Shown: positions 4,368 to 13,988, counted from the stretch's first letter. The stretch: 32,000 nt of DNA from Candidatus Caldarchaeales archaeon (GCA_039630085.1 JBCNVM010000006.1:1-32000); one strand, 5' to 3'. Notes: generated by a model not told the origin, from the letters alone. Numbers and translations are program-made.

Positions 4368-5408
4368 ATGGACTCGAGGTACATCTACGTCCTCGCCTTC
4401 GCGACCAGGGGCAAGCTGCTGGAGAGGAGGGCGCTGGAGGACCTCGCCGACTCGAAGACCTTGGACGACTTGGTCACCGCGCTCAGGGCCACCCACTACT
4501 CGGAGGCCGTCTCAGAGCTCCCGCAGCCGGTCACCGCCAGGAGGGTCGAGCTGGCGCTGAGGAGGTACCTGTACCGATACCACCACTCGATGATCAGGTA
4601 CACCTCTTGGAACCCCGCGCTGGTCGCCCTCTTCGAGAGGTACGTCGTCAGGGAACTTAAGGCCGCCGTCAGGGGCATCGCGTCCGGGAAGTCGGTCGAC
4701 GAGGTGATGAGGGAGGTCGACCTCGTGCCCGCCGAGCTCCTAGGGGTCAGGGACGTGACAGCGAGGGCGGTGGCGTCGAGGTCCGCGACCGAGCTCAGGC
4801 TGGCCCTCAGGGGGACGAAGTACGAGGCTCCGGTGAACTCCGCGCTCGACTACTTCGAGAGGACCGGCGACCCCGCCGCGATAGACGTCGAGCTGGACAA
4901 GTCGATCGTCGGCTCCCTGTCGGCCTCGATCCGCGCCCTCAAGGGGACCGACAGGAGGTGGGTGAGGTGGATGGTCGAGCGCTACCTCAACTCGGTCGTC
5001 GTCGAGGCGGTGCTCAGGTCGAAGGCTTGGAGGCTCGAGCCGGGCGAGGTCAGGAGGGCGATAGAGGGCCTCGAGCACGGGATACCGCGTCCGGTGATGG
5101 AGGTCCTGCTGGAGAGCTCCGAGGCCGAGGCTGTCTCGAGGGCCCTTCAGCTCGTCGAGGGGAAGAGCCTGCCGCGTCTGACCGAGAGGCTGAGCCTGAC
5201 CGCGATGGCCTCACAGCTGAGGGAGAGGGCGTGGAAGGACCTGGTCTCGAGGGCGAGGAGGGCCTTCCTGATCACGGACTCGCACCTGGCCCTTGCCGTT
5301 GCTTCGGTCTTCCTCCTCGAGGACGAGGTCGCGCGGGTGACGTCGATCGCTACCGGGATCGAGATGGGCCTCGGGAAGGAGGAGATACTCGAGGTCGCAC
5401 TCTTCTGA
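4368..5408 (+). CDS. atpC: A/V-type ATP synthase subunit C (eukaryotic V0 d-like)
   Basis: 346 aa, all alpha. The N-terminus YIYVLAFATRGKLLERRALEDLADSKTLDDLVTALRATHYSE matches the usual Y.Y...R.r....ll....l..l...L..t.Y pattern of subunit C. It is adjacent to the AtpH-like ORF. Confidence 0.7.
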   Translation: MDSRYIYVLAFATRGKLLERRALEDLADSKTLDDLVTALRATHYSEAVSELPQPVTARRVELALRRYLYRYHHSMIRYTSWNPALVALFERYVVRELKAAVRGIASGKSVDEVMREVDLVPAELLGVRDVTARAVASRSATELRLALRGTKYEAPVNSALDYFERTGDPAAIDVELDKSIVGSLSASIRALKGTDRRWVRWMVERYLNSVVVEAVLRSKAWRLEPGEVRRAIEGLEHGIPRPVMEVLLESSEAEAVSRALQLVEGKSLPRLTERLSLTAMASQLRERAWKDLVSRARRAFLITDSHLALAVASVFLLEDEVARVTSIATGIEMGLGKEEILEVALF

Positions 5409-5464
5409 GGTCACCTGGCGGGGAGACCCGTCAGAGCCTCTGGTGGCGATCGGAACGCGTGACG

Positions 5465-5470
5465 AAAAAA
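5465..5470 (-). terminator. Oligo-T tract (T6 on minus strand) about 30 nt downstream of the CoxL-like stop
   Basis: The plus strand reads gacgAAAAAAggg, so the minus strand reads cccTTTTTTcgtc. Archaeal intrinsic termination typically uses oligo-T tracts. Confidence 0.35.
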
Positions 5471-5501
5471 GGGAGCTCTAGGAGGATTCCTATGTGAGAA
5501 C

Positions 5502-7859
5502 TCATTTCGCGACTGACTTTATCGCCCTCAGGACCTTCTCCGGCGTCAGCGGCATGTCGAGGTGCTTGACGCCGAGGTGGGCCAGCGCGTCGAGGACCGC
5601 GTTCACGACGGCAGGCGTGGAGGCTATCGTCCCCGCCTCTCCGATCCCCTTCACCCCGAGCGGGTTGTGCGGCGAAGGCGTGACCGTCGAGTCGGTGACG
5701 ATGTCCGGGATCTCGACAGCGGTCGGGACCAGGTAGTCGTTCAGGGTCGAGGTGAGAAGGTTGCCCGACGCGTCGTAGGCCGCCTCCTCGTAGAGCGCCT
5801 GCGCGAGCCCCTGAGCGATGCCCCCGTGTATCTGGCCCTCGACGATCATCGGGTTGATCTGGTTGCCGCAGTCGTCGACCGCGACGTACTTCAGCAGCTT
5901 GACCTGTCCGCTGTCCCGGTCCACCTCGACGACGCAGACGTGCGTCCCGAACGGGAAGGTGAAGTTCGGCGGGTCGTAGAAGACCGTCGCCTCAAGTCCC
6001 GGCTCCATGCCGCTGGGGATCTCGTTGGCTCCGGCTCCGTAGGCCGCGAACGCGACCTCTTGTATCGTCTTGGACTTCTCGGGAGCCTCCCTGACGTAGA
6101 ACCTCCCCGCCTCGAAGGCTAGGTCCTCCTCCCTCACCTCGAGCATGTGGGCCGCGATCCTCTTGGCCTTCTCGATCACCTTGTCGCACGCGAGGGCGAT
6201 CGCTCCGCCCGCGACCGGCGTCGTCCTGCTCCCGTAGGTGCCCATCCCGAACGGCACCTGATCGGTGTCGCCGTGGATCACCTCGACGTCCTCCAGCGGC
6301 ACGCCCAGCTTGTCGGCCACTATCTGGGCGAAGGTCGTCTCCTCGCCCTGGCCGTGCGGGTGCCCTCCCGTGAAGACCGAGACCTTCCCGGTCGGGTGGA
6401 CCCTCACGACCGTGCTCTCCCAGAGGCCGAGCCCGAACCCCAGCGACCTCACCGCGGCCGACGGCCCCATCCCGCAGACCTCGACGTAGCTGGAGATCCC
6501 GATCCCGATCAGCCTGCCCATCTCCCTTGCCCTCCTCTGCTCCTCCCTCCACCTGTGGTAGTCGACGAGCTCCAGCGCCCTCCTGAAGGCCCTCTCGTAG
6601 TCGCCGCTGTCGTAGACCAGGGCTATCGGGGTCTGGTACGGGAACCTGTCCTTCGGTATGAAGTTCCTCGCCCTGACATCCGCCGGGTCCATCCCTAGCT
6701 CCCTCGCGACGAGGTCCATCACCCGCTCGAGGATGTAGGTCGCCTCCGGCCTGCCCGCGCCCCTGTAGGCGTCGACCGGAGCCGTGTTGGTCAGGGCCCC
6801 TATCACCTCTACCGATATCCCCCTGATCGCGTACGGGCCCGAGAGCATCGGCCCGAAGAGGATCGTGGGTATGCCCGGGGCCGCCGTTGAGATGTACGCT
6901 CCGAGGTTCGCGTAGGACCTCACCCTGAGGCCCAGGACCTTCCCGTCCTTCGTAGCCGCCGCCTCCACGTACTGGACGTGGTCCCTTCCGTGGATCGTGG
7001 AGGTGAAGTTCTCTTGCCTCGTCTCGACCCACTCGACCGGCAGCTCCAGCCTCTTCGCGAGGTGAAGGACCACGGCCTCGGGGCCGTAGCAGTGGATCTT
7101 CGACCCGAAGCCGCCTCCCACGTCGTAGGAGACCACCCTCAGCTTGTGCTCGGGCGTCCCCGTGATCGCGGAGAGAAGGAGCCTGTGGACGTGCGGGTTC
7201 TGCGTCGTCAAGTAGATCGTAGACCTGTCAGAGAACCTGTCGTAGACCGCGAGCGCGGCCCTCGTCTCCAGCGCGGCGGGCTGGAGCCTCGAGTTCACCA
7301 TCCTCTGCTTGACCACGACGTCCGCCCGCGAGAACGCGGCCTCGACGTCCCCTCCCGATGCCCTCCAGGTGAAGGCCCTGTTATCGGGGACCTCGTCGTA
7401 GAGCAGCGGAGCTCCGGGCTGTACGGCCTTCTCCGGATCGGTCACCGCAGGGAGCTGCTCGAACTCGGCCCTCACGAGCCCCGCTGCGTCCGCGGCCGCG
7501 TAGGGAGAGCGGGCCACGACCACTGCGTAGGGGTCGCCGACGTACCTGACCTTGTCGACCGCGACCGGCATGTACTTCGGGACCTTGAGGTCGGCGCCCG
7601 GTATCTGCCAGGCCGTGGGGACGGGACCGATCGAGTCCGCGAGGTCGCGGCCCGTGAAGACCGCGATCACGCCGTCCGCCCTCTGCGCCCTCGAGACGTC
7701 GACGGACTTGATCCTCGCGTGGGCGTACGGGCTCCTCACGAAGTGGGCGTAGACCGTGCCCGGGAGCGCGATGTCCGCGGTGAACCTCCCCTTCCCGGTG
7801 ATCAGCCTCGGGTCCTCCTTCCTCTTAACCCTGGCACCGAACAGTTTAGTTACGGCCAT
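5502..7859 (-). CDS. Xanthine dehydrogenase/CO dehydrogenase family molybdopterin-binding large subunit (form II CoxL-like)
   Basis: N-terminus [23 protein letters not shown], then [10 protein letters not shown] and [15 protein letters not shown]. The AYRGAGR spelling is form II-type, not the form I AYRCSFR active-site loop. Length 785 aa. Confidence 0.85.
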
Positions 7860-8867: not shown

Positions 8868-8876
8868 GTTAAATAC
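8868..8876 (+). promoter_or_regulatory. TATA-like box upstream of the SMC-like gene
   Basis: GTTAAATAC lies about 30 nt upstream of ATG 8905. Confidence 0.35.
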
Positions 8877-8904: not shown

Positions 8905-10647
8905 ATGGTCAAGGTCTACGGGCCGCTGGAGGAGGCGAGGCCGGCGCTGAGGAGGGTCCACGTAAGGGAGGTGGTGCTGGAAAACTTCATGTCGCACGAG
9001 TACAGCAGGGTAAGGATATCGAGGGGGATCAACCTGATCACCGGCCCCAACGGCGCCGGGAAGTCCTCGATACTGCTCGGGATCTCGGTAGCGCTGGGTC
9101 AGAGCTACACCGAGAGGGGCGAGAGGCTCGCGGACCTCATCAGGAGGGGCCGGGACTCCGCGAGGGTGTCGGTCGTGCTGGACAACTCGCCGCTCGACGG
9201 CGAGCGCCCCGTTAAGTCGATCCCGCTCGACACCATCACGATCACCCGGTACATCAAGAGGACCGGAGAGTACTGGCACTACGTCAACAACAGGTTCAGG
9301 ACGAAGGCCGAGGTCGACCAGCTACTAAGGTCCCTTGGGATCAACCCGAACAACCTCCTGATCGTGATGCACCAGAACATGATCGAGGAGTTCGCGGCCC
9401 GCGACGACGCCGAGAAGCTCAGGATGCTCGAGGACGCCGTCGGCCTCTCGTCGATGAGGGAGAGGATCCTCCAGGCGCAGGAGAGGCTCTCGTCCCTGAT
9501 CGGCGAGGTGAACGCGGTGAGGAGGGCCCTCGAGGAGGCGGCGGCCGCCGTTGAGTACTGGAGGTCCGAGGTCGAGAAGCTCTCGAGGAAGAGGGAGCTA
9601 GAGTCGAGGAGGGCGGCCCTAGAGCTGGAGTACCTCTGGAGCCTCGCGAGGTCGACGGAGCTGGCGGCGATGAGGAAGTCGGAGCTGCTCGACCGGGTCA
9701 GGTCCGAGCTCTCCGAGCTCAGGACCGAGGAGGCCGAGGTCTCCGAGAGGCTCAGGTCGGGGAGGTCCGCGCTCGCGGAGCTGCTCAGGTCCGGAGCCGG
9801 CGACGCCGAGTCAATCCTGAGGGAGGTAGACGGGCTGATCGAGCTGGCGGCGCGGAGGGGCGTGATCGGCTACAGGATCGGCGAGCTGGAGAGGGAGGAG
9901 AGGGACCTCGAGAGGGAGATCAGGGCCCTCGAGAGAGAGCTCGAGGAGAGGACGAGGGCCGCGTCGGAGAGGGGGCCGCGGGTCGAGACCGACCGGGAAC
10001 CCACGGAGGTCCAAGAGGAGCTGAAGTTCGTGGCGCTCCAGCTCTCCTCGATCGGGACCGTCGTCGGCGAGGCGGAGGAGATGTACTTCATGGCGGACTC
10101 GAAGTTCAGGGGCCTCCAGATCCGGGCCGAGGAGCTGGAGCAGAACGTCAAGAGGGCGCTCGAGGAGGTCGAGCACCGCAAGAGGGTCTGGAGGGAGAAG
10201 CTCGAGGAGCTGGTTGAGGAGGTCAACCCCGTCTACGACGAGATCCTCTCCAGCGTCGGGGGAACCGGCGCGATCAGGCTCAGGGGACTCGAGGACCCAG
10301 CGACCGCGAGGCTCGAGCTCTACGCGGGCTTCAGGGGGAACCCGGCGACGCTCCTCGACGCGAGGACCCACAGCGGCGGCGAGAGGGTGCTGGCGACGCT
10401 CGGCTTCCTGCTCGCGGTCCAGTCCAGGGTCAAGTCGCCCTTCAGGGCCGTCGACGAGTTCGACGTCCACCTCGACCCTCTGAACAGGGAGAGGATGATG
10501 ACGATGCTCCTCGAGACCGCTCGGAGGCACGGCGACGTCCAGTACATCATCATCACGCCCGGCAGGGTCCCCGAGATGGACGGGGTCAACCTGATCGTGG
10601 TCCAGAACGTCTCCGGGCGCTCGATCGTGACGGGAGGTCAGGTATGA
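8905..10647 (+). CDS. Short SMC-superfamily ATPase: hinge-less, no zinc hook, SMC5/6-like head motifs
   Basis: N-terminal head LENFMSHEY...INLITGPNGAGKSSILLGISVALGQ (Walker A). Q-loop-like IVMHQNMIEEFA. About 240 aa of heptad-rich coiled coil with a Gly-rich turn (LLRSGAGDAES). C-terminal head HSGGERVLATLGFLLAVQ (signature) and SPFRAVDEFDVHLDPLNR (Walker B/D-loop). No Cys residue anywhere in the arm. Confidence 0.8.
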   Translation: MVKVYGPLEEARPALRRVHVREVVLENFMSHEYSRVRISRGINLITGPNGAGKSSILLGISVALGQSYTERGERLADLIRRGRDSARVSVVLDNSPLDGERPVKSIPLDTITITRYIKRTGEYWHYVNNRFRTKAEVDQLLRSLGINPNNLLIVMHQNMIEEFAARDDAEKLRMLEDAVGLSSMRERILQAQERLSSLIGEVNAVRRALEEAAAAVEYWRSEVEKLSRKRELESRRAALELEYLWSLARSTELAAMRKSELLDRVRSELSELRTEEAEVSERLRSGRSALAELLRSGAGDAESILREVDGLIELAARRGVIGYRIGELEREERDLEREIRALERELEERTRAASERGPRVETDREPTEVQEELKFVALQLSSIGTVVGEAEEMYFMADSKFRGLQIRAEELEQNVKRALEEVEHRKRVWREKLEELVEEVNPVYDEILSSVGGTGAIRLRGLEDPATARLELYAGFRGNPATLLDARTHSGGERVLATLGFLLAVQSRVKSPFRAVDEFDVHLDPLNRERMMTMLLETARRHGDVQYIIITPGRVPEMDGVNLIVVQNVSGRSIVTGGQV

Positions 10648-11390
10648 GGCCGGTGGAGGTCAGGGTCGAGGAGCTCCGGAGGATGGCGGCGGCCCTCGAG
10701 TCGGTCCTTAGCATGAAGGTCGAACCATTCACCGTCAACGTCTCCTCCCTCCTCAGGAGGCTCAGGTCGATCATCGAGGAGAGCAGGGACCTAGAGACGG
10801 TCGTCCTCGACGCCGAGGTCCTCTACAGAGTCTCAGTGGTCCTGGGACTCCAGCAGAGGTACATCCTCCAGAGCGCCTCCTCGCTGCTGGTCGACTCCCA
10901 GCTGGTCGTCGCGAAGGTCCTCAGGTCCGAGCCCCACGAGCTCGCAGCGTCCTTCGTCTCTGCGTGGCGCCCCATCGCGAGGGTCGAGCACGTCACAACT
11001 CCCCTGCTCATCAGGGCCTACGAGCACTTCCTCTCGCTCCCGGGGAAGCCGTTGAGGGTCGAGGTCGGGCCGTCCGCGGAGGAGAGGGCCCCGGGCTGGG
11101 AGGCCTACGAGGCTGCGTTCGAGGAGGAGCTGAGGTCGCTGAGGGCGGAGCTCGAGTCCACGGGCGGCTGGGTCGACTACTGGGAGTTCGTCTCGAGGGA
11201 GGGCGACCGCCGTAGGGCCGGCAGGGCCTACCTCCTGAGCTTCCTCATCACCCGGGGCGAGGCCGAGGTCCGGTACGACCCGCTCAGGGAGGAGATCAAG
11301 GTGAGGGCCGCGACCTCTCCGCAGCAGAGGAGGGAGGGCGACGTCCTCTCGCTGGTGATATCGCTGGGTCGGATCGGACAGGGCGGCTGA
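10644..11390 (+). CDS. Kleisin-like (ScpA-like) protein, translationally coupled to the SMC-like ATPase
   Basis: ATGA start/stop overlap at 10644-10647. N-terminal region LDAEVLYRVSVVLGLQQRYIL resembles the kleisin N-domain pattern (LD.a.EYLvmAa.L..iKs..L). C-terminal VDYWEFVS...GRAYLLSFLITRGEAEVRYDPLREEIKVRA resembles the ScpA winged-helix pattern (tFLALLEL.k.g.i.l.Q.e.fgeI.i). Judged by eye only. Confidence 0.55.
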   Translation: MRPVEVRVEELRRMAAALESVLSMKVEPFTVNVSSLLRRLRSIIEESRDLETVVLDAEVLYRVSVVLGLQQRYILQSASSLLVDSQLVVAKVLRSEPHELAASFVSAWRPIARVEHVTTPLLIRAYEHFLSLPGKPLRVEVGPSAEERAPGWEAYEAAFEEELRSLRAELESTGGWVDYWEFVSREGDRRRAGRAYLLSFLITRGEAEVRYDPLREEIKVRAATSPQQRREGDVLSLVISLGRIGQGG

Positions 11391-11460
11391 GCGACGGACT
11401 CAACCCATGGCCAATCCCCCGGCCTCCGGGCTCCACTTCCGGCAGGGTTGAGTAGCGGGT

Positions 11461-11530
11461 CCACTTTCGGAGCGCACTCGGACTTTCGGGAGACCCTCCG
11501 TGGATTTCGGGGACCTCGACCGCCTTCGGG
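11461..11530 (+). repeat. Four phased TTTCGG/TTCGGG direct repeats about 20 bp apart, just upstream of ATG 11534
   Basis: ccacTTTCGGag (TTCGG at 11466), ggacTTTCGGGag (11485), ggaTTTCGGGGa (11506), cgccTTCGGGcc (11525). Spacings are 19, 21 and 19 nt. A related CACTTCCGG lies at 11434-11442. Confidence 0.5.
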
Positions 11531-11533
11531 CCG

Positions 11534-11815
11534 ATGGGCAGGACCGTCCCGACGTACAGGCAGAGGCTCCTGGCCGAGCTCGAGAGGTGGAGGTGCTTCA
11601 GGTCGGCGCTCCTGAGGGAGGAGAGGGAGGACTTCGACGGGCTGGTGGACCAGGCCTTCTCCTACGTCCACGCGGGCTCCATGTGCCCAGATAGGGAGGC
11701 TTTCGAGGTGCTGGTGTTCTCGCTGCTCCTCGCCCACGAGTCGAGGCTCAGGTCGCTCGAGAGGGCGGCCGGCCTCGAGGCTCCCAGGGTCGGGACGAAG
11801 GGGCTTGATCGGTAG
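11534..11815 (+). CDS. Small alpha-helical protein of unknown function; its 3' end overlaps the PolB start
   Basis: 93 aa: MGRTVPTYRQRLLAELERWRCFRSALLREEREDFDGLVDQAFSYVHAGS...FEVLVFSLLLAHESRLRSLE. Composition is protein-like. It overlaps the PolB TTG start by 11 nt in a different frame. It looks like a conserved archaeal hypothetical, but I cannot name the family. Confidence 0.5.
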   Translation: MGRTVPTYRQRLLAELERWRCFRSALLREEREDFDGLVDQAFSYVHAGSMCPDREAFEVLVFSLLLAHESRLRSLERAAGLEAPRVGTKGLDR

Positions 11816-13988
11816 GCTGCTGGACCTGAACGTCACGCCCGACGGCGAGGCGGTCGAGCTCTGGCTCAAGTCCGGAGAGTCCCGGGTCGAGAGGGTCCGC
11901 GTCGGGTGGAGGCCCTCGGTCTGCGCGGTCGGGCCCGAGAGCGCGCTGGAGGAGCTCGCGAGGGCGTTCGGCGAGCGCTCGGAGCAGGTAATGGCCTCGG
12001 AGGAGCCCGGGAAGGAGCCGAGGCCGGCGCTGAGGATTAGGGCGAGGGCTTGGGAGAGGAGGGAGCTCGCGAGGCGGATCGAGTCGTCCTTCGGGAGAGG
12101 AGGTGTCAGGGTCTACGACGTTGACGTCCCGGTGCTGCAGCAGTTCCTCTACGAGCACGGGCTCTTCCCCACCGCGCTGGTCGAGGTCGCGGGAGACCGG
12201 CTGAGGGCCCTCGACTCGAGGGAGGACGCGGACTACGATGTCTCGTGGGTCAGGGTCGTGGAGCTCGAGGTCTCGACGCGGGGAGGCTCGGCCTACCCCG
12301 ACTTCGACGAGCCCCTGAGGTCCTTGAGGCTGAACTCCGGGGAGGGAGAGGTGGAGCTGGAAGGCGACGAGCCCGGCGTCCTCGAGGAGCTGAAGAGGGC
12401 CGTGGAGCCCTTCGACGTGCTGCTGGTCAGGGGCGGCGACTCCTTCGCGATGCACTACCTCCGCCACAGGGCGTCGGTCAACGGCGTCGAGCTCGAGCTT
12501 GGGAGGGACAGGTCCCCGAGGCCGAGGAGGGACTCGAGGGCCTACTGGAGCTACGGCAGGGTCTACAGGAGGCACAGCGCCTTCAGGCTGAGGGGAAGGG
12601 TCCACGTCGACCCGCTCAACTCCTTCGTCTACGCCCACTCGGGGCTCAACGGCCTCCTCGAGGTAGCTAGGACCTGCGTCGTCCCGCTCCACGACGCCGC
12701 GAGGTACACGATCGGGCAGTGCATGACCTCCCTTCAGTTCGAGGTCGCGAACAGGAGGAACGTCCTCGTGCCTTGGAAGGCCGGAAGGCCGCTCTACTTC
12801 ACCCTCGGGGAGCTCAGCCTGATGGACAGGGGAGGCCTCACGCTCGACCACAGGCCCGGAGTCTACTGGGGAGTCGCGGAGATCGACTTCCAGAGCATGT
12901 ACCCGATGATCATCCTGACGAGGAACGTAAGTGCCGAGACCGTGAACTGCGGGTGCTGCGGCGGCCGCGGAACGCCGGTCCCTGAGATCGGAGGCCACAC
13001 CTGCTCGAGGAGGGTCGGGCTCGTCCCGGAGGCGATATCGCTCCCGCTCAGGAAGAGGCTCGCCTACAAGTCGATGCTCAGGGAGGGGAGGGGCGACCCG
13101 GAGGTCCTCGGGGCGAGGTCGGACGCGCTGAAGTGGGTCCTCGTCTCGTCCTTCGGATACCTGGGCTTCAGGAAGGCTAAGTTCGGGTCGAGGCTCGCCC
13201 ACATGGCCGTCTGCGCCCACGCCAGGGACGCGTTGTTGAAGGCGGTGAGGGTCGCGGAGCGGATGGGCTTCGAGGTCGTCCACGGGATCGTCGACTCGCT
13301 CTGGGTCAGGAGGGAGGGCGCGGCGGAGGAGGACTACCTGGAGCTGGTGAAGGCGATCGAGGAGGAGACCGGCCTGCCCGCGGCCCTCGAGGGGACCTAC
13401 CGGTGGATCGCGTTCCTCCCATCGAAGTCCTCTCCGCTCAGGCCCGTCAACGGGAGGTACTTCGGCTTCAAGACCGACGGCAGGGTGAAGTTCAGGGGGA
13501 TAGAGGCGAGGAGGTCGGACACGCCGCCGCTGGTCAGGAGGATGCAGCTGGAGATGCTCGAGGTCCTCTCGAGGGTCGAGGCCCCCGAAGACCTTCCGGG
13601 CGCAGCGGAGGAGTGCGTCGGCGTGCTGAGGAGGTACGAGAGGGACCTAGTCCTCGGGAGGGTGGGCGTGGAGGACCTGGTGGTGACGGTGAGGCTCTCG
13701 AGGGACCCCCTCGGTTACGTCAACAGGGTCAGGCAGGCGGCGGCAGCGAGGAGGCTCCTGAGGATGGGCGTGGAGGTCGGGGCCGGGAGCGCCGTCAGCT
13801 ACGTCGCCCTCGGAGAGGGCTCCGCGCCCTACCCTTCGGAGGAACCAATCAGCCCCGCCTGCTGCTCGACGAGGTTCTACCTGAACGCGCTCAGGAGGGC
13901 CGCGGAGACGATCATCTCGCCGCTGGTCCGGGCCGCGGCCGAGGCGCGCGGTGGACCCGTCGCCGTCAGGGCCTCAGCAGCACCTTGA
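11805..13988 (+). CDS. polB: Family B DNA polymerase with degenerate exonuclease and polymerase motifs (PolB2-like)
   Basis: Motif A DFQSMYPMIILTRN is intact. Motif B is KWVLVSSFGYLGF, versus the usual K...NS.YG. Motif C is VVHGIVDSLWV, versus YGDTDS. The K.Y/thumb region reads GRYFGF...FRGIEARRSDTPPLV. The Exo I position reads VVELEVST (no D.E) and the Exo II position GGDSFAMHYL (versus N...FD..Y). Length 727 aa, no intein. Confidence 0.8.
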   Translation: MIGRLLDLNVTPDGEAVELWLKSGESRVERVRVGWRPSVCAVGPESALEELARAFGERSEQVMASEEPGKEPRPALRIRARAWERRELARRIESSFGRGGVRVYDVDVPVLQQFLYEHGLFPTALVEVAGDRLRALDSREDADYDVSWVRVVELEVSTRGGSAYPDFDEPLRSLRLNSGEGEVELEGDEPGVLEELKRAVEPFDVLLVRGGDSFAMHYLRHRASVNGVELELGRDRSPRPRRDSRAYWSYGRVYRRHSAFRLRGRVHVDPLNSFVYAHSGLNGLLEVARTCVVPLHDAARYTIGQCMTSLQFEVANRRNVLVPWKAGRPLYFTLGELSLMDRGGLTLDHRPGVYWGVAEIDFQSMYPMIILTRNVSAETVNCGCCGGRGTPVPEIGGHTCSRRVGLVPEAISLPLRKRLAYKSMLREGRGDPEVLGARSDALKWVLVSSFGYLGFRKAKFGSRLAHMAVCAHARDALLKAVRVAERMGFEVVHGIVDSLWVRREGAAEEDYLELVKAIEEETGLPAALEGTYRWIAFLPSKSSPLRPVNGRYFGFKTDGRVKFRGIEARRSDTPPLVRRMQLEMLEVLSRVEAPEDLPGAAEECVGVLRRYERDLVLGRVGVEDLVVTVRLSRDPLGYVNRVRQAAAARRLLRMGVEVGAGSAVSYVALGEGSAPYPSEEPISPACCSTRFYLNALRRAAETIISPLVRAAAEARGGPVAVRASAAP

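What the first reader, a model, noticed from the sequence alone, without database searches (positions are those of the whole stretch)
8905..11390. Hinge-less mini-SMC ATPase with SMC5/6-style head motifs, translationally coupled to an ScpA-like kleisin
Seen in the 580-aa ORF: complete ABC/SMC head motifs (GPNGAGKSS, HQNMIEEFA, HSGGER, FRAVDEFDVHLDP). The two head halves are separated by only about 240 aa of heptad-rich sequence. That arm has a Gly-rich turn (LLRSGAGDAES), no cysteine (so no Rad50 zinc hook) and no room for a globular hinge. The spellings ENFMSH and DEFDVHLD are what I associate with SMC5/SMC6-type heads. They differ from canonical SMC (GFKS..., LDEVDAALD) and from Rad50. The stop overlaps the start of the next ORF (ATGA). 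That 248-aa ORF carries kleisin-like N-terminal (LDAEVLYRVSVVLGLQQRYIL) and C-terminal winged-helix-like (AYLLSFLITRGEAEVRYDPLREEIKV) patterns. Inference: a miniature SMC-kleisin ring with arms about a quarter of normal length. No ScpB/KITE-like gene is adjacent. How such a short hairpin arm would dimerise or entrap DNA is unclear. It could relate to the SMC-like arcadin-4 of the crenactin 'arcade' cluster, to coalescin-type proteins, or to an undescribed family.
Basis: partly seen in the sequence, partly recalled or inferred. Interest (0 to 1): 0.78.

Follow-up and report, generated by a model that had tools for sequence, protein, structure and literature searches.

The report
Hinge-less short-armed archaeal SMC5/6-type complex
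An uncultured hot-spring-type archaeon (Aigarchaeota/Caldarchaeales) encodes a half-length relative of the eukaryotic SMC5/6 chromosome-maintenance ATPase with no hinge domain, next to its Nse4-type partner, which offers a natural minimal version of these DNA-handling machines.

Summary
Window 8905-10647 (+) encodes a 580-aa SMC-family ATPase with intact, invariant ATP-binding and hydrolysis motifs. Its antiparallel coiled-coil arm spans about 268 residues and reverses at a 4-residue turn. It has no hinge, no cysteine and no zinc hook. Its stop codon overlaps (ATGA) the start of a 248-aa gene.

The interpretation needs three corrections.
1. The partner is a kleisin, but of the Nse4 (SMC5/6) type, not the ScpA type.
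2. A kite subunit exists. An Nse1/Nse3-like gene follows the kleisin in nearly all related loci. In the window's two closest relatives it has moved elsewhere in the same genome.
3. The ATPase is not arcadin-4, ClsN/ASRP, Rad50 or RecN. It belongs with the published "SMC5/6-related archaeal SMC" lineage.

What I could not find described in the papers I could search is the architecture. About 55 clusters (at 50% identity) and 193 genome loci in Caldarchaeales, Methanomethylicia, Hadarchaeales and Bathyarchaeota carry this short form. The arm tip is the least conserved part, while the nearest long relative keeps a hinge.

The most likely mechanism is an ATP-gated DNA clamp built from two heads, one kleisin and kites. 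This is inferred, not shown. Novelty: new variant of a known kind.

The parts
8869..8875 (+). TTAAATA box, a candidate archaeal TATA element 36 nt upstream of the ATPase start codon
   Evidence: Read directly from the sequence. The same box is present in L009, and TTTAAAT occupies the corresponding position in L006. Promoter function is inferred.
8905..10647 (+). Gene for the 580-aa hinge-less SMC5/6-type ATPase
   Evidence: ORF. Pfam SMC_N 112.6 bits. PDB best hits Smc5 E=1e-36 and Smc6 E=4e-28. AlphaFold2 mean pLDDT 86. 193 related genome loci.
8959..9447 (+). N-terminal half of the ATPase head (residues 19-181), including NFMSH (27-31), Walker A GPNGAGKSS (47-55; nt 9043-9069) and the Q-loop Q157
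   Evidence: Motif positions. These residues are invariant in alignment A2. Mean conservation 0.81.
9448..9792 (+). Continuous ascending arm helix (residues 182-296). Its head-proximal neck carries conserved A212, V216, W219 and L232.
   Evidence: DSSP on the model gives H182-296. Conservation falls from 0.63 at the neck to 0.38 distally.
9793..9804 (+). Arm tip: a 4-residue turn GAGD (residues 297-300) in the place of a hinge or zinc hook
   Evidence: Model. It is the least conserved segment (0.27), and almost all family length variation maps after residues 286 and 296. No short arm contains CxxC.
9805..10251 (+). Descending arm (residues 301-449), with two conserved helix breaks at 357-365 and 384-389 (nt 9973-10071) that resemble the Smc joint
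   Evidence: DSSP gives H301-356, H366-383 and H390-449. G357, R359, R364 and G384 are conserved. The published joint has a continuous N-terminal helix opposite a broken C-terminal helix (PMC5526789). Top fold hit is 5xei.
10252..10614 (+). C-terminal half of the head (residues 450-570): signature HSGGER (489-494; nt 10369-10386), Walker B and D-loop FRAVDEFDVHLDP (513-525; nt 10441-10479), and ITP at the H-loop position (550-552; nt 10552-10560)
   Evidence: Motif positions. Invariant residues. Group-wise motif counts.
10633..10647 (+). Gene junction: GGAGG (10633-10637), a 6-nt spacer, then ATGA (10644-10647), where the kleisin start overlaps the ATPase stop
   Evidence: Read directly from the sequence. 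The same 4-nt type of overlap occurs in 27 of 81 related loci. Translational coupling itself is inferred.
10644..11390 (+). Gene for the 248-aa Nse4-type kleisin
   Evidence: ORF. 11 close homologs. Found next to the ATPase in 85 of 89 loci. The family profile hits EID3/NSE4B and yeast Nse4. Pfam Nse4_C matches 22/33 members.
10644..10928 (+). Kleisin N-terminal helical region (residues 1-95), including the conserved LDAE...LQ..W...AS.L..D block. It is the presumed binding site for the SMC neck.
   Evidence: Helices 8-23, 33-46 and 57-78 in the model. D56, A57, E58, Q70, W73, A78, L81 and D84 are conserved. Neck binding is inferred from known kleisins and was not tested.
11097..11309 (+). Kleisin C-terminal winged-helix domain (residues 152-222), the presumed binding site for the SMC head cap
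   Evidence: Helix-helix-helix-strand-strand with pLDDT 64-89. Foldseek matches ScpA C-terminal domain 4i99_C/D (prob 1.0, TM 0.61, rmsd 3.6), 5h66_C and Scc1-C 1w1w_E. Profile alignments to Nse4 cover this region.

Best explanation
The two genes encode the SMC subunit and the Nse4-type kleisin of an archaeal SMC5/6-related complex, in a derived form that has lost the hinge and about two thirds of each arm. The third subunit, an Nse1/Nse3-like kite, is encoded elsewhere in this sublineage.

Proposed mechanism. Shown steps:
- All ATP-binding and hydrolysis motifs are intact.
- The kleisin has the C-terminal winged helix that in known kleisins binds the head cap.
- The head-proximal neck and a joint-like interruption of the arm are conserved.
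- The arm tip is not conserved.

Inferred steps:
- Two ATPase molecules dimerise through ATP-dependent head engagement.
- They are held together by one kleisin that binds the neck of one molecule and the cap of the other, and the kleisin carries the kites.
- DNA is clamped on top of the engaged heads inside the kleisin-kite compartment, as in DNA-bound yeast Smc5/6.
- With no hinge or hook to close the arms, the complex is unlikely to entrap DNA between its arms or to extrude loops. It more likely acts as an ATP-gated DNA clamp or tether.
- It plausibly works in DNA repair or at stalled replication forks, given what SMC5/6 does in eukaryotes and the recurrent Lhr helicase neighbour.
For: Identity of the ATPase:
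- Best solved-structure sequence matches are Smc5 (E=1e-36) and Smc6 (E=4e-28), ahead of prokaryotic Smc (E=4e-24).
- Motifs shared with SMC5/6 and absent from canonical SMC.
- Head-only neighbour-joining tree: short forms + CxxC forms + P0186 form a clade at 77% bootstrap, on the SMC5/SMC6 side of the canonical root.

Partners:
- The kleisin profile hits Nse4 chains at E=1.4e-4 to 9e-4, and Nse4_C matches 22/33 members. Fold hits are mostly kleisin chains.
- Kite members hit MAGE in 13/31 and SMC_Nse1 in 9/31 cases.
- The order ATPase-kleisin-kite is found in 79 of 89 loci, with most exceptions explained by contig ends.
- The kite is found in the same assemblies as the kite-less pairs.

Architecture:
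- Model with pLDDT 86 and no hinge.
- 5xei aligned over 558 columns.
- Arm lengths of 249-383 residues in 135 family members, with no CxxC.
- The tip is the least conserved segment and takes nearly all the indels.
- The sister protein P0186 keeps a hinge (E=2e-11 to the Pfam-verified hinge of P0219).

Housekeeping character:
- Identity tracks taxonomy: 94%, then 70%, then 51-59%, then 42-48%.
- GC content matches the surrounding genome.

Repair link:
- Lhr is the convergent neighbour in 28/62 loci, across three lineages.
Against: - No complex was modelled or measured. Stoichiometry, neck and cap contacts and DNA binding are all inferred by analogy.
- The window's own kleisin does not reach any Pfam model by itself. 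Its model is poor outside the C-terminal domain (mean pLDDT 55), and Foldseek E-values are no better than 5.6e-3.
- The tree is neighbour-joining on 335 columns. The window's head is as similar to canonical SMC (31%) as to eukaryotic SMC5/6 (28-29%).
- Van Hooff et al. scored the Caldarchaeales SMC inconsistently, as SMC5/6-related in two genomes and only as "unknown archaeal" in a third.
- An unconserved tip does not exclude lateral arm-arm association that closes a small ring.
- The Lhr link is absent from this window and from more than half of the loci.
Confidence: 0.7

Rival explanations
1. The complex is the same, but it still forms a closed ring. The two short arms associate laterally or at their tips without a dedicated domain, roughly as RecN is thought to dimerise through its coiled-coil ends. 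The complex would then entrap DNA topologically, or even translocate, within a small lumen.
For: The distal descending arm is slightly richer in hydrophobic residues (0.46) than its neighbours (0.35-0.39). Canonical Smc arms zip along their length and contact each other at the joint (PMC5526789). A related subclade carries a mid-arm CxxC, which suggests that joining the tips is useful in this family.
Against: The tip is the least conserved segment (0.27) and absorbs insertions of variable length. No short arm has a cysteine pair, and 76/135 members have no cysteine at all. No globular element is predicted at the tip.
Confidence: 0.2
2. The arm does not fold back within one molecule. Instead, two molecules form an intermolecular antiparallel coiled coil. 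Each head would be built from the N-terminal half of one chain and the C-terminal half of the other, giving a dumbbell with a head at each end.
For: With no hinge, nothing in the sequence enforces intramolecular folding. Monomer structure prediction cannot distinguish the two topologies.
Against: The model predicts a confident hairpin, with pLDDT 76-83 at the turn. The family tolerates variable insertions exactly at residues 286-296, which suits a loop but would disturb a continuous helix. The turn is Gly-rich. All characterised SMC-family proteins fold back intramolecularly (established knowledge). A kleisin that bridges neck and cap fits two adjacent heads, not heads about 35 nm apart.
Confidence: 0.05
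3. It is an SMC-based immunity system against foreign DNA, comparable to Lamassu (LmuB-LmuC) or Wadjet, and not a chromosomal maintenance complex.
For: PADLOC models mad3 (114 bits) and LmuB (65 bits) match the ATPase. Short-armed SMC-like ATPases with kleisin-like partners occur in defence systems, and Smc5/6 has a role in antiviral immunity in humans (PMC10586767 abstract).
Against: The kleisin and kite hit no PADLOC model. The operon contains no nuclease or other effector. The genes are found as one locus per species genome in the scan, their identity tracks taxonomy, and their neighbours are housekeeping genes. GC content equals that of the genome. Scores against Smc5 (130 bits) exceed those against LmuB.
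Confidence: 0.05

Closest known systems
Archaeal SMC5/6-related complex (SMC + Nse4-related kleisin + Nse1/3-related kite), described phylogenetically by Yoshinaga & Inagaki 2021 (PMC8665677) and van Hooff et al. 2025 (bioRxiv 10.1101/2024.01.07.573240)
   Same: Same three subunit types and the same operon logic. Found in TACK archaea. Head motifs and best matches point to SMC5/6. Caldarchaeales genomes, including HRBIN02 (my L015), are already scored in that dataset.
   Different: In the parts I read and searched, those papers describe SMC proteins as dimerising through hinge domains and do not mention length or hinge loss. Here the SMC is 580 aa with no hinge. Hinge-bearing members of the same lineage, P0186 (982 aa) and P0219 (835 aa, Asgard), show what has been lost.
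Eukaryotic Smc5/6-Nse1/3/4 core (e.g. PDB 7tve, 7qcd, 8i4x)
   Same: Best sequence matches for the head. SMC6-like NFMxH and DEFDV motifs and ITP at the H-loop position. Nse4-type kleisin C-terminal domain. MAGE/Nse1-like kite.
   Different: The eukaryotic proteins are about 1100 aa, form heterodimers, and have long arms and a hinge. They also carry Nse2, Nse5/6 and a RING domain on Nse1. The archaeal protein is presumably a homodimer and has none of these. Head identity is only 28-29%.
Engineered Pyrococcus yayanosii Smc head + coiled coil + joint fragment (PDB 5xei, PySmcHd-CC80; PMC5526789)
   Same: Top structural match (E=5e-21, 558 aligned columns). Same layout: head, neck, and a joint in which the N-terminal helix is continuous and the C-terminal helix is broken.
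   Different: 5xei is an artificial truncation of a canonical Smc. The window protein is a natural full-length product, extends about 55 residues per strand beyond the joint, and has SMC5/6-type motifs.
RecN (bacterial SMC-like repair ATPase)
   Same: [quoted passage not shown] A DNA-repair role is plausible for both.
   Different: NCBIfam recN scores 27.5 bits against a cut-off of 407.85. RecN has no kleisin or kite partner. The resemblance is in architecture only, and the description of RecN is from my own knowledge.
ASRP family (ClsN/coalescin, Sph1/2) and arcadin-4
   Same: Archaeal SMC-superfamily ATPases, some of about 600 aa.
   Different: [quoted passage not shown] This protein has no cysteine. 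NCBIfam ASRP scores 68.8 against a cut-off of 300, and arcadin-4 scores 32.2 against 860. The ASRP paper found no consensus in the genes flanking ASRP genes.
"Hinge-less" SMC variants from marine metagenomes (PMC12153180)
   Same: SMC-type head with a coiled coil, no hinge and no CxxC. This is an independent report that hinge loss occurs in nature.
   Different: Those variants are bacterial (assigned near Actinobacteria) and related to canonical SMC. The words kleisin, Nse4 and SMC5 do not occur in that paper's main text. The present family is archaeal, SMC5/6-type, and has identified kleisin and kite partners.

Membership tests
SMC superfamily (ABC-type head split by a coiled coil) | Walker A, Q-loop, signature motif, Walker B and D-loop present in an N/C-split arrangement | tested here: met
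   Pfam SMC_N scores 112.6 bits against a cut-off of 40, spanning residues 20-551. The motifs are located and invariant in the family.
Canonical SMC (TIGR02169 / TIGR02168) | Full-length match above the curated cut-off, including the hinge domain | tested here: not met
   176.8 bits against a cut-off of 729.4, and 137.1 against 567.35. Pfam SMC_hinge gives no hit at E<=1. The model has no globular insert.
SMC5/6-related archaeal SMC lineage | Head closer to SMC5/6 than to canonical SMC | tested here: met
   PDB ranking: Smc5 1e-36, Smc6 4e-28, prokaryotic Smc 4e-24. Shared ITP, DEFDV and NFMxH motifs that are absent from 5/5 canonical SMC.
SMC5/6-related archaeal SMC lineage | Phylogenetic placement with hinge-bearing SMC5/6-related archaeal SMC and eukaryotic SMC5/6 | tested here: inconclusive
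   The neighbour-joining head tree places the short forms with P0186 (77% bootstrap) and on the SMC5/6 side of the canonical root. The method is crude, and deep nodes were either untested or weakly supported. No maximum-likelihood analysis was possible.
SMC5/6-related archaeal SMC lineage | Nse4-related kleisin encoded alongside | tested here: met
   The adjacent 248-aa gene belongs to a family that matches Nse4 chains (E=1.4e-4 to 9e-4) and Pfam Nse4_C in 22/33 members. The window's own copy does not reach Nse4_C by itself.
SMC5/6-related archaeal SMC lineage | Nse1/Nse3-related kite encoded alongside | tested here: inconclusive
   Absent from the 32-kb window. Present directly downstream in 79 of 89 loci, with MAGE and Nse1 hits. 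Present on another contig in the two closest relatives' assemblies. The window's own genome could not be searched.
SMC5/6-related archaeal SMC lineage | Hinge dimerisation domain and long arms, the general SMC architecture | tested here: not met
   This is the respect in which the protein is a variant.
Kleisin superfamily | C-terminal winged-helix domain of the kind that binds the SMC head cap | tested here: met
   Residues 152-222 fold as helix-helix-helix-strand-strand. Foldseek matches ScpA-C 4i99_C/D (prob 1.0, TM 0.61), 5h66_C and Scc1-C 1w1w_E. Profile alignment to Nse4 covers this region.
Kleisin superfamily | N-terminal helical domain that binds the SMC neck, so that one kleisin bridges two heads | not testable with these tools
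   Conserved N-terminal helices exist, but no multimer prediction was available.
ASRP (ClsN / Sph) | Zinc-hook CxxC at the arm tip, and a score above the NCBIfam cut-off | tested here: not met
   No cysteine. 68.8 bits against a cut-off of 300.
Arcadin-4 (Rkd4) | Score above the NCBIfam cut-off; crenactin cluster context | tested here: not met
   32.2 bits against a cut-off of 860, covering the N-terminal 76 residues only. No crenactin-type neighbours in any locus examined.
Rad50 | Zinc hook; Mre11 partner; score above the cut-off | tested here: not met
   73.5 bits or less against cut-offs of 700 or more. No cysteine. No Mre11-like neighbour in the examined loci.
RecN | Score above the NCBIfam cut-off | tested here: not met
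   27.5 bits against a cut-off of 407.85.
Lamassu / MADS / Wadjet defence ATPases | Matching partner genes and an effector in the operon | tested here: not met
   Only the ATPase head hits mad3 and LmuB. The kleisin and kite hit nothing. No effector gene in the operon.

The most novel reading that the evidence does not exclude
This is a natural SMC-kleisin-kite holocomplex that works with no device at all for joining the arm tips. It would be a minimal, head-centred, ATP-gated DNA clamp that cannot extrude loops. It would represent either what an SMC5/6-type machine does at its core, or a separate functional class derived from it. Within the same clade, one lineage (Bathyarchaeota, 1016-1047 aa) later re-extended the arms and acquired a Rad50-like zinc hook in place of the lost hinge.
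Probability: 0.35. Interest if true: 0.8.

Novelty: new variant of a known kind. Interest (0 to 1): 0.62.

Why it matters
Current models of SMC action, including loop extrusion, DNA-segment capture and topological entrapment, give essential roles to the long arms and the hinge. Engineered short-armed bacterial Smc variants have been studied for exactly this reason, and one such "Mini-Smc" is described as non-functional (PMC5526789; PMC5344682).

This family is conserved and diverse, appears to be vertically inherited, and keeps the heads, neck, joint, kleisin and kite while discarding the hinge and about two thirds of each arm. It is therefore a natural experiment on which parts are needed for which function.

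Because the family sits in the lineage from which eukaryotic SMC5/6 is thought to derive, it also bears on what the ancestral SMC5/6-type activity was. The proteins are small and come from high-temperature environments (my own knowledge of these lineages), which would make them attractive for cryo-EM of the DNA-clamped state. If the mechanism proposed here is wrong and the complex does close a ring or translocate, that would be equally informative.

Tried and rejected
- **First head tree.** Global profile alignment kept only 34 head columns because arm lengths differ, so the tree was meaningless and I discarded it. A rerun with Biopython distances timed out. I replaced it with motif-anchored head extraction and numpy distances.
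- **ASRP/ClsN, arcadin-4, Rad50, RecN, RecF.** All fall far below curated cut-offs, and the protein has no cysteine.
- **Defence system.** PADLOC gives only generic head similarity.
- **Truncation or assembly artefact.** Rejected because lengths of 548-685 aa are consistent across about 55 clusters at 50% identity and 193 genome loci.
- **Kite remnant in the window.** tblastn and HMM searches found nothing. The 93-aa ORF at 11534-11815 is unrelated to the kite; its counterpart in L006 is annotated DUF8156 and is paired with the polymerase gene.
- **Single-sequence searches for the 248-aa protein.** Pfam, NCBIfam and PDB gave nothing significant. Only the 33-sequence profile reached Nse4.
- **Rfam and promoter/terminator scans.** These found nothing relevant. 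The promoter scan models bacterial sigma-70 sites and does not apply to archaea.
- **Cluster look-ups for taxonomic names.** Few names were returned.
- **Literature searches for a prior description of the hinge-less archaeal form.** None was found, but the library does not cover most subscription journals.


Full report
**Source and observation**

The window has about 65% G+C throughout. The closest relatives of the genes studied come from MAGs of Candidatus Calditenuaceae, order Caldarchaeales (the former Aigarchaeota), phylum Nitrososphaerota.

Every quoted motif is present, neither protein contains a cysteine, and the junction reads GGAGG, a 6-nt spacer, then ATGA.

The genes are real. The ATPase has full-length relatives of 574-606 aa down to 51% identity, and all catalytic residues are invariant across a 40-sequence alignment: K53, Q157, S490-G-G-E-R494 and D517-E518-F-D520. 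The 248-aa protein evolves faster, with only 11 hits in a single-sequence search. HMM searches nevertheless find it next to the ATPase in 85 of 89 loci.

**Architecture of the ATPase**

AlphaFold2 on the 40-sequence alignment gives a confident model with mean pLDDT 86. Its layout is:

| Residues | Element |
|---|---|
| 19-181 | N-terminal half of the head |
| 182-296 | One continuous helix |
| 297-300 | Four-residue turn (GAGD) |
| 301-449 | Return strand, broken at 357-365 and 384-389 |
| 453-565 | C-terminal half of the head |

There is no globular insert, and Pfam SMC_hinge is not detected at E<=1. The best structural match in the PDB is 5xei, an engineered Pyrococcus yayanosii Smc "head + coiled coil + joint" fragment, aligned over 558 columns. 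Smc5/6 head-region structures follow.

The published Smc joint has a continuous N-terminal helix opposite a C-terminal helix split into short pieces (PMC5526789). The model shows the same pattern, and the break residues G357, R359, R364 and G384 are conserved. In effect, the protein is an SMC cut off about 55 residues per strand beyond the joint. From the helix length I estimate an arm of roughly 17 nm, about one third of the 47-49 nm given for canonical Smc.

**Which family the ATPase belongs to**

Curated models exclude the named alternatives:

| Model | Score (bits) | Cut-off (bits) |
|---|---|---|
| Canonical SMC (TIGR02169) | 176.8 | 729.4 |
| ASRP | 68.8 | 300 |
| Arcadin-4 | 32.2 | 860 |
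| Rad50 models | 73.5 or less | 700 or more |
| RecN | 27.5 | 407.85 |

[quoted passage not shown] This protein has no cysteine.

The positive evidence points to SMC5/6. The best sequence matches among solved structures are yeast Smc5 (E=1e-36) and Smc6 (E=4e-28), ahead of prokaryotic Smc.

| Motif | Short forms | Euk. SMC5 | Euk. SMC6 | Canonical SMC |
|---|---|---|---|---|
| (I/V)TP at the H-loop position | 30/30 | 10/10 | 11/11 | 0/5 |
| D-loop DEFDV | 29/30 | 0/10 | 11/11 | 0/5 |
| N-terminal NFM(S/C)H/Y | 30/30 | 4/10 | 10/11 | 0/5 |

I built a head-only neighbour-joining tree from 335 columns with 100 bootstraps. It groups the short forms with the 982-aa protein P0186 at 77% and places them on the SMC5/SMC6 side of the canonical root. 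This tree is crude. Head identity to canonical SMC (31%) is no lower than to the fast-evolving eukaryotic proteins (28-29%). I therefore treat the phylogeny as consistent with the SMC5/6 assignment, not decisive for it.

**The partner proteins**

On its own, the 248-aa protein matches nothing significant. With a 12-sequence profile, the only PDB hit was 4i99_C, the chain co-crystallised with the Pyrococcus Smc head, at E=0.75.

A 33-sequence profile built from related loci hits human EID3/NSE4B (E=1.4e-4) and yeast Nse4 (E=3e-4 to 9e-4) over the C-terminal domain. Pfam Nse4_C matches 22 of the 33 members, with a best E-value of 1.3e-7.

The monomer model is poor overall (mean pLDDT 55). Residues 152-222, however, fold as a winged helix with pLDDT 64-89. 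Foldseek hits are weak but thematically uniform: Nse4 (7qcd_F, 7tve_G), ScpA C-terminal domain (4i99_C/D, 5h66_C), Scc1-C (1w1w_E), RAD21-C chains and Brn1-C (6qj2_B). One search confirms that 7qcd_F and 7tve_G are Nse4 chains. The protein is therefore a kleisin of the Nse4 type, not the ScpA type.

**The kite**

Relatives carry a third gene of about 190-220 aa directly after the kleisin. An HMM finds it in 79 of 89 loci, and most exceptions are explained by contig ends. Its members give sub-threshold hits to MAGE (the Nse3 family) in 13 of 31 cases and to SMC_Nse1 in 9 of 31. The family profile touches a MAGE-domain chain, 7dg2_C, at E=0.05.

The window, its 94%-identical relative L009, and L006/L007/L010 (two assemblies labelled Thaumarchaeota/Calditenuaceae, with identical ATPase sequences) lack this gene after the kleisin. 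In L006 and the window, a 93-aa ORF (annotated DUF8156 in L006) and a family-B polymerase gene follow instead.

The kite has moved, not disappeared. Proteins 71-73% identical to the Calditenuis kite are encoded on other contigs of the very assemblies that hold L006 (GCA_033581515.1) and L009 (GCA_033581555.1). In each case the gene stands alone next to a UbiA-family gene and a DNA ligase. The window's own genome could not be searched, but the same arrangement is the likeliest.

**Distribution and evolution**

An exhaustive search of cluster representatives (50% identity) finds about 55 clusters at E<1e-90 with lengths of 548-685 aa. A scan of one genome per species finds 193 loci, of which the best 80 were returned. 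They come from Caldarchaeales, Methanomethylicia and Hadarchaeales. One 685-aa member is named as Bathyarchaeota.

Identity tracks taxonomy: 94%, 86%, 70%, 51-59%, then 42-48%. The genes also share the G+C content of their surroundings. Both features suggest vertical, housekeeping-type inheritance.

Among 135 family members, the arm is 249-383 residues long (median 268). None has CxxC in the arm, and 76 have no cysteine at all.

Conservation falls from the heads (0.75-0.81) through the neck (about 0.65) to the tip. The turn is the least conserved segment (0.27), and nearly all indels map after residues 286 and 296.

The nearest long relative, P0186, has a middle domain that aligns to the Pfam-verified hinge of the Asgard protein P0219 at E=2e-11. 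The hinge-less state is therefore most simply a derived loss.

Two side observations come from relatives, not from the window:
- **Zinc-hook-like relatives.** Proteins of 1016-1047 aa, in a cluster that includes a Bathyarchaeota-named member, fall inside the short-form clade in the tree. They carry a single conserved mid-arm C-x-x-C-G-S motif.
- **A second hinge-less group.** P0196 and P0207 branch separately from the main short clade.

**Relation to the literature**

Yoshinaga & Inagaki (2021) defined "SMC5/6-related" archaeal SMC homologs. They accepted sequences of 500-1500 aa and removed coiled-coil columns before building trees.

Van Hooff et al. (2025 preprint) describe archaeal operons of an SMC5/6-related SMC, an Nse4-related kleisin and an Nse1/3-related kite in TACK and Asgard archaea. 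Their Supplementary Table 3 already scores three Caldarchaeales genomes for these subunits, although inconsistently for the SMC itself.

In the main texts, and in the van Hooff supplementary files I could search, neither paper mentions a missing hinge or short arms. My other searches found no description of an archaeal hinge-less form either. A 2025 paper reports hinge-less SMC variants in marine metagenomes, but these are bacterial and canonical-SMC-like, and its main text does not mention kleisin, Nse4 or SMC5 (PMC12153180).

The lineage and the three-subunit logic are therefore known. The architecture appears to be new, within the limits of a library that omits most subscription journals.

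**How it most likely works**

Shown:
- The ATPase has a complete, conserved ATP-binding and hydrolysis apparatus.
- The neck and joint are conserved, while the tip is unconstrained.
- The adjacent gene encodes an Nse4-type kleisin with a C-terminal winged helix.
- An Nse1/3-type kite is a regular third subunit in relatives.

Inferred from established SMC structural biology:
- Two ATPase molecules engage their heads around two ATP molecules.
- One kleisin binds the neck of one molecule through its N-terminal helices and the cap of the other through its winged helix.
- The kites sit on the kleisin's central linker.
- DNA is clamped on the engaged heads, as in DNA-bound yeast Smc5/6 (PDB 7tve).

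Without a hinge, hook or conserved tip, the arms cannot form a covalently continuous lumen. I therefore expect an ATP-gated clamp or tether and not a loop extruder.

A role in DNA repair or at replication forks is plausible but weakly supported. It rests on what SMC5/6 does in eukaryotes and on one recurrent neighbour: an Lhr-type helicase is the immediate convergent neighbour in 28 of 62 loci with enough sequence, in all three lineages. That helicase is not present in this window.

Rivals:
- **Closed small ring.** Lateral or tip-to-tip arm association could still close a small ring. The data cannot exclude this.
- **Intermolecular dumbbell.** Two chains could form one long antiparallel coiled coil with a head at each end. 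This is disfavoured by the loop-like indel pattern at the tip and by the confident hairpin model.
- **Defence system.** This is disfavoured by the lack of an effector gene, by core-genome behaviour, and by the absence of PADLOC hits for the partner proteins.

**Verdict**

It needs correcting on the kleisin subtype, on the existence of a kite, and on the candidate families.

It is a new architectural variant of a known kind of system. It should interest SMC specialists as a natural minimal complex. Nothing about its quaternary structure or activity has yet been shown.

Noticed in passing
Relatives P0163, P0164, P0173 (1016-1047 aa) and fragments P0199, P0200; not in the window: Long-armed relatives carry one conserved mid-arm C[DE][KR]CGS motif that resembles a Rad50 or ASRP zinc hook. 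A member of the P0163 cluster is named Bathyarchaeota. In the head tree they fall inside the hinge-less clade, which suggests that a hook replaced the lost hinge within an SMC5/6-type family.
   Followed up: partly
Relatives P0196 and P0207 (628-633 aa); not in the window: A second group of short, hinge-less SMC5/6-type ATPases branches apart from the main short clade (99% bootstrap for the pair), near the hinge-bearing Asgard protein P0219. Hinge loss may therefore have happened more than once.
   Followed up: partly
L001 9104-11932 (-), and the equivalent position in 28 of 62 related loci: An Lhr-type helicase of about 940-950 aa (DEAD, Helicase_C, WHD_Lhr, DEAD_assoc) is the immediate convergent neighbour of the kite gene in Caldarchaeales, Methanomethylicia and Hadarchaeales, with gaps of -46 to +57 nt. 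It is not present in this window.
   Followed up: partly
L092 6001-6615 and L093 6001-6615 (assemblies GCA_033581515.1 and GCA_033581555.1): In the window's sublineage, the Nse1/3-like kite gene stands alone. It lies between a molybdopterin oxidoreductase / Fe-S gene cluster and a UbiA-family gene, with an ATP-dependent DNA ligase just beyond.
   Followed up: yes
window 11534-11815 (+) and 11805-13988 (+): A 93-aa ORF overlaps the start of a 727-aa family-B DNA polymerase gene. Its counterpart in L006 is annotated DUF8156. The polymerase scores below all NCBIfam cut-offs (351 bits against 516) and shows no significant exonuclease-domain match (E=0.15). It may be a divergent or inactive PolB paralogue.
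   Followed up: no
window 11391-11533: The spacer after the kleisin gene holds a perfect 9-nt inverted repeat (11398-11406 / 11445-11453, 38 nt apart) and three ACTT(T/C)CGG copies (11435, 11463, 11482). This could be a terminator region or a scar of the rearrangement that removed the kite gene.
   Followed up: no
L051 (contig CAZHGP010000008.1), ATPase at 4968-6788: This locus has a 606-aa short-form ATPase (48% identical to the window's) but neither a kleisin nor a kite within 5 kb. A 511-aa ORF on the opposite strand follows instead. This may be another case of operon break-up.
   Followed up: no
van Hooff et al. Supplementary Table 3 (bioRxiv 10.1101/2024.01.07.573240): The three Caldarchaeales genomes are scored inconsistently. 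The SMC5/6-related SMC is marked present in Caldarchaeum subterraneum and HRBIN02 but absent in NZ13-MG1, which instead has an "unknown archaeal" SMC. The Nse4-related kleisin is marked missing in C. subterraneum. All three genomes have an ScpB-like kite, which hints at a second, canonical-type system.
   Followed up: partly
window 8869-8875: A TTAAATA box lies 36 nt upstream of the ATPase start codon. It is also present in L009, and TTTAAAT occupies the corresponding position in L006. It is a plausible archaeal TATA element that would give a very short leader.
   Followed up: partly
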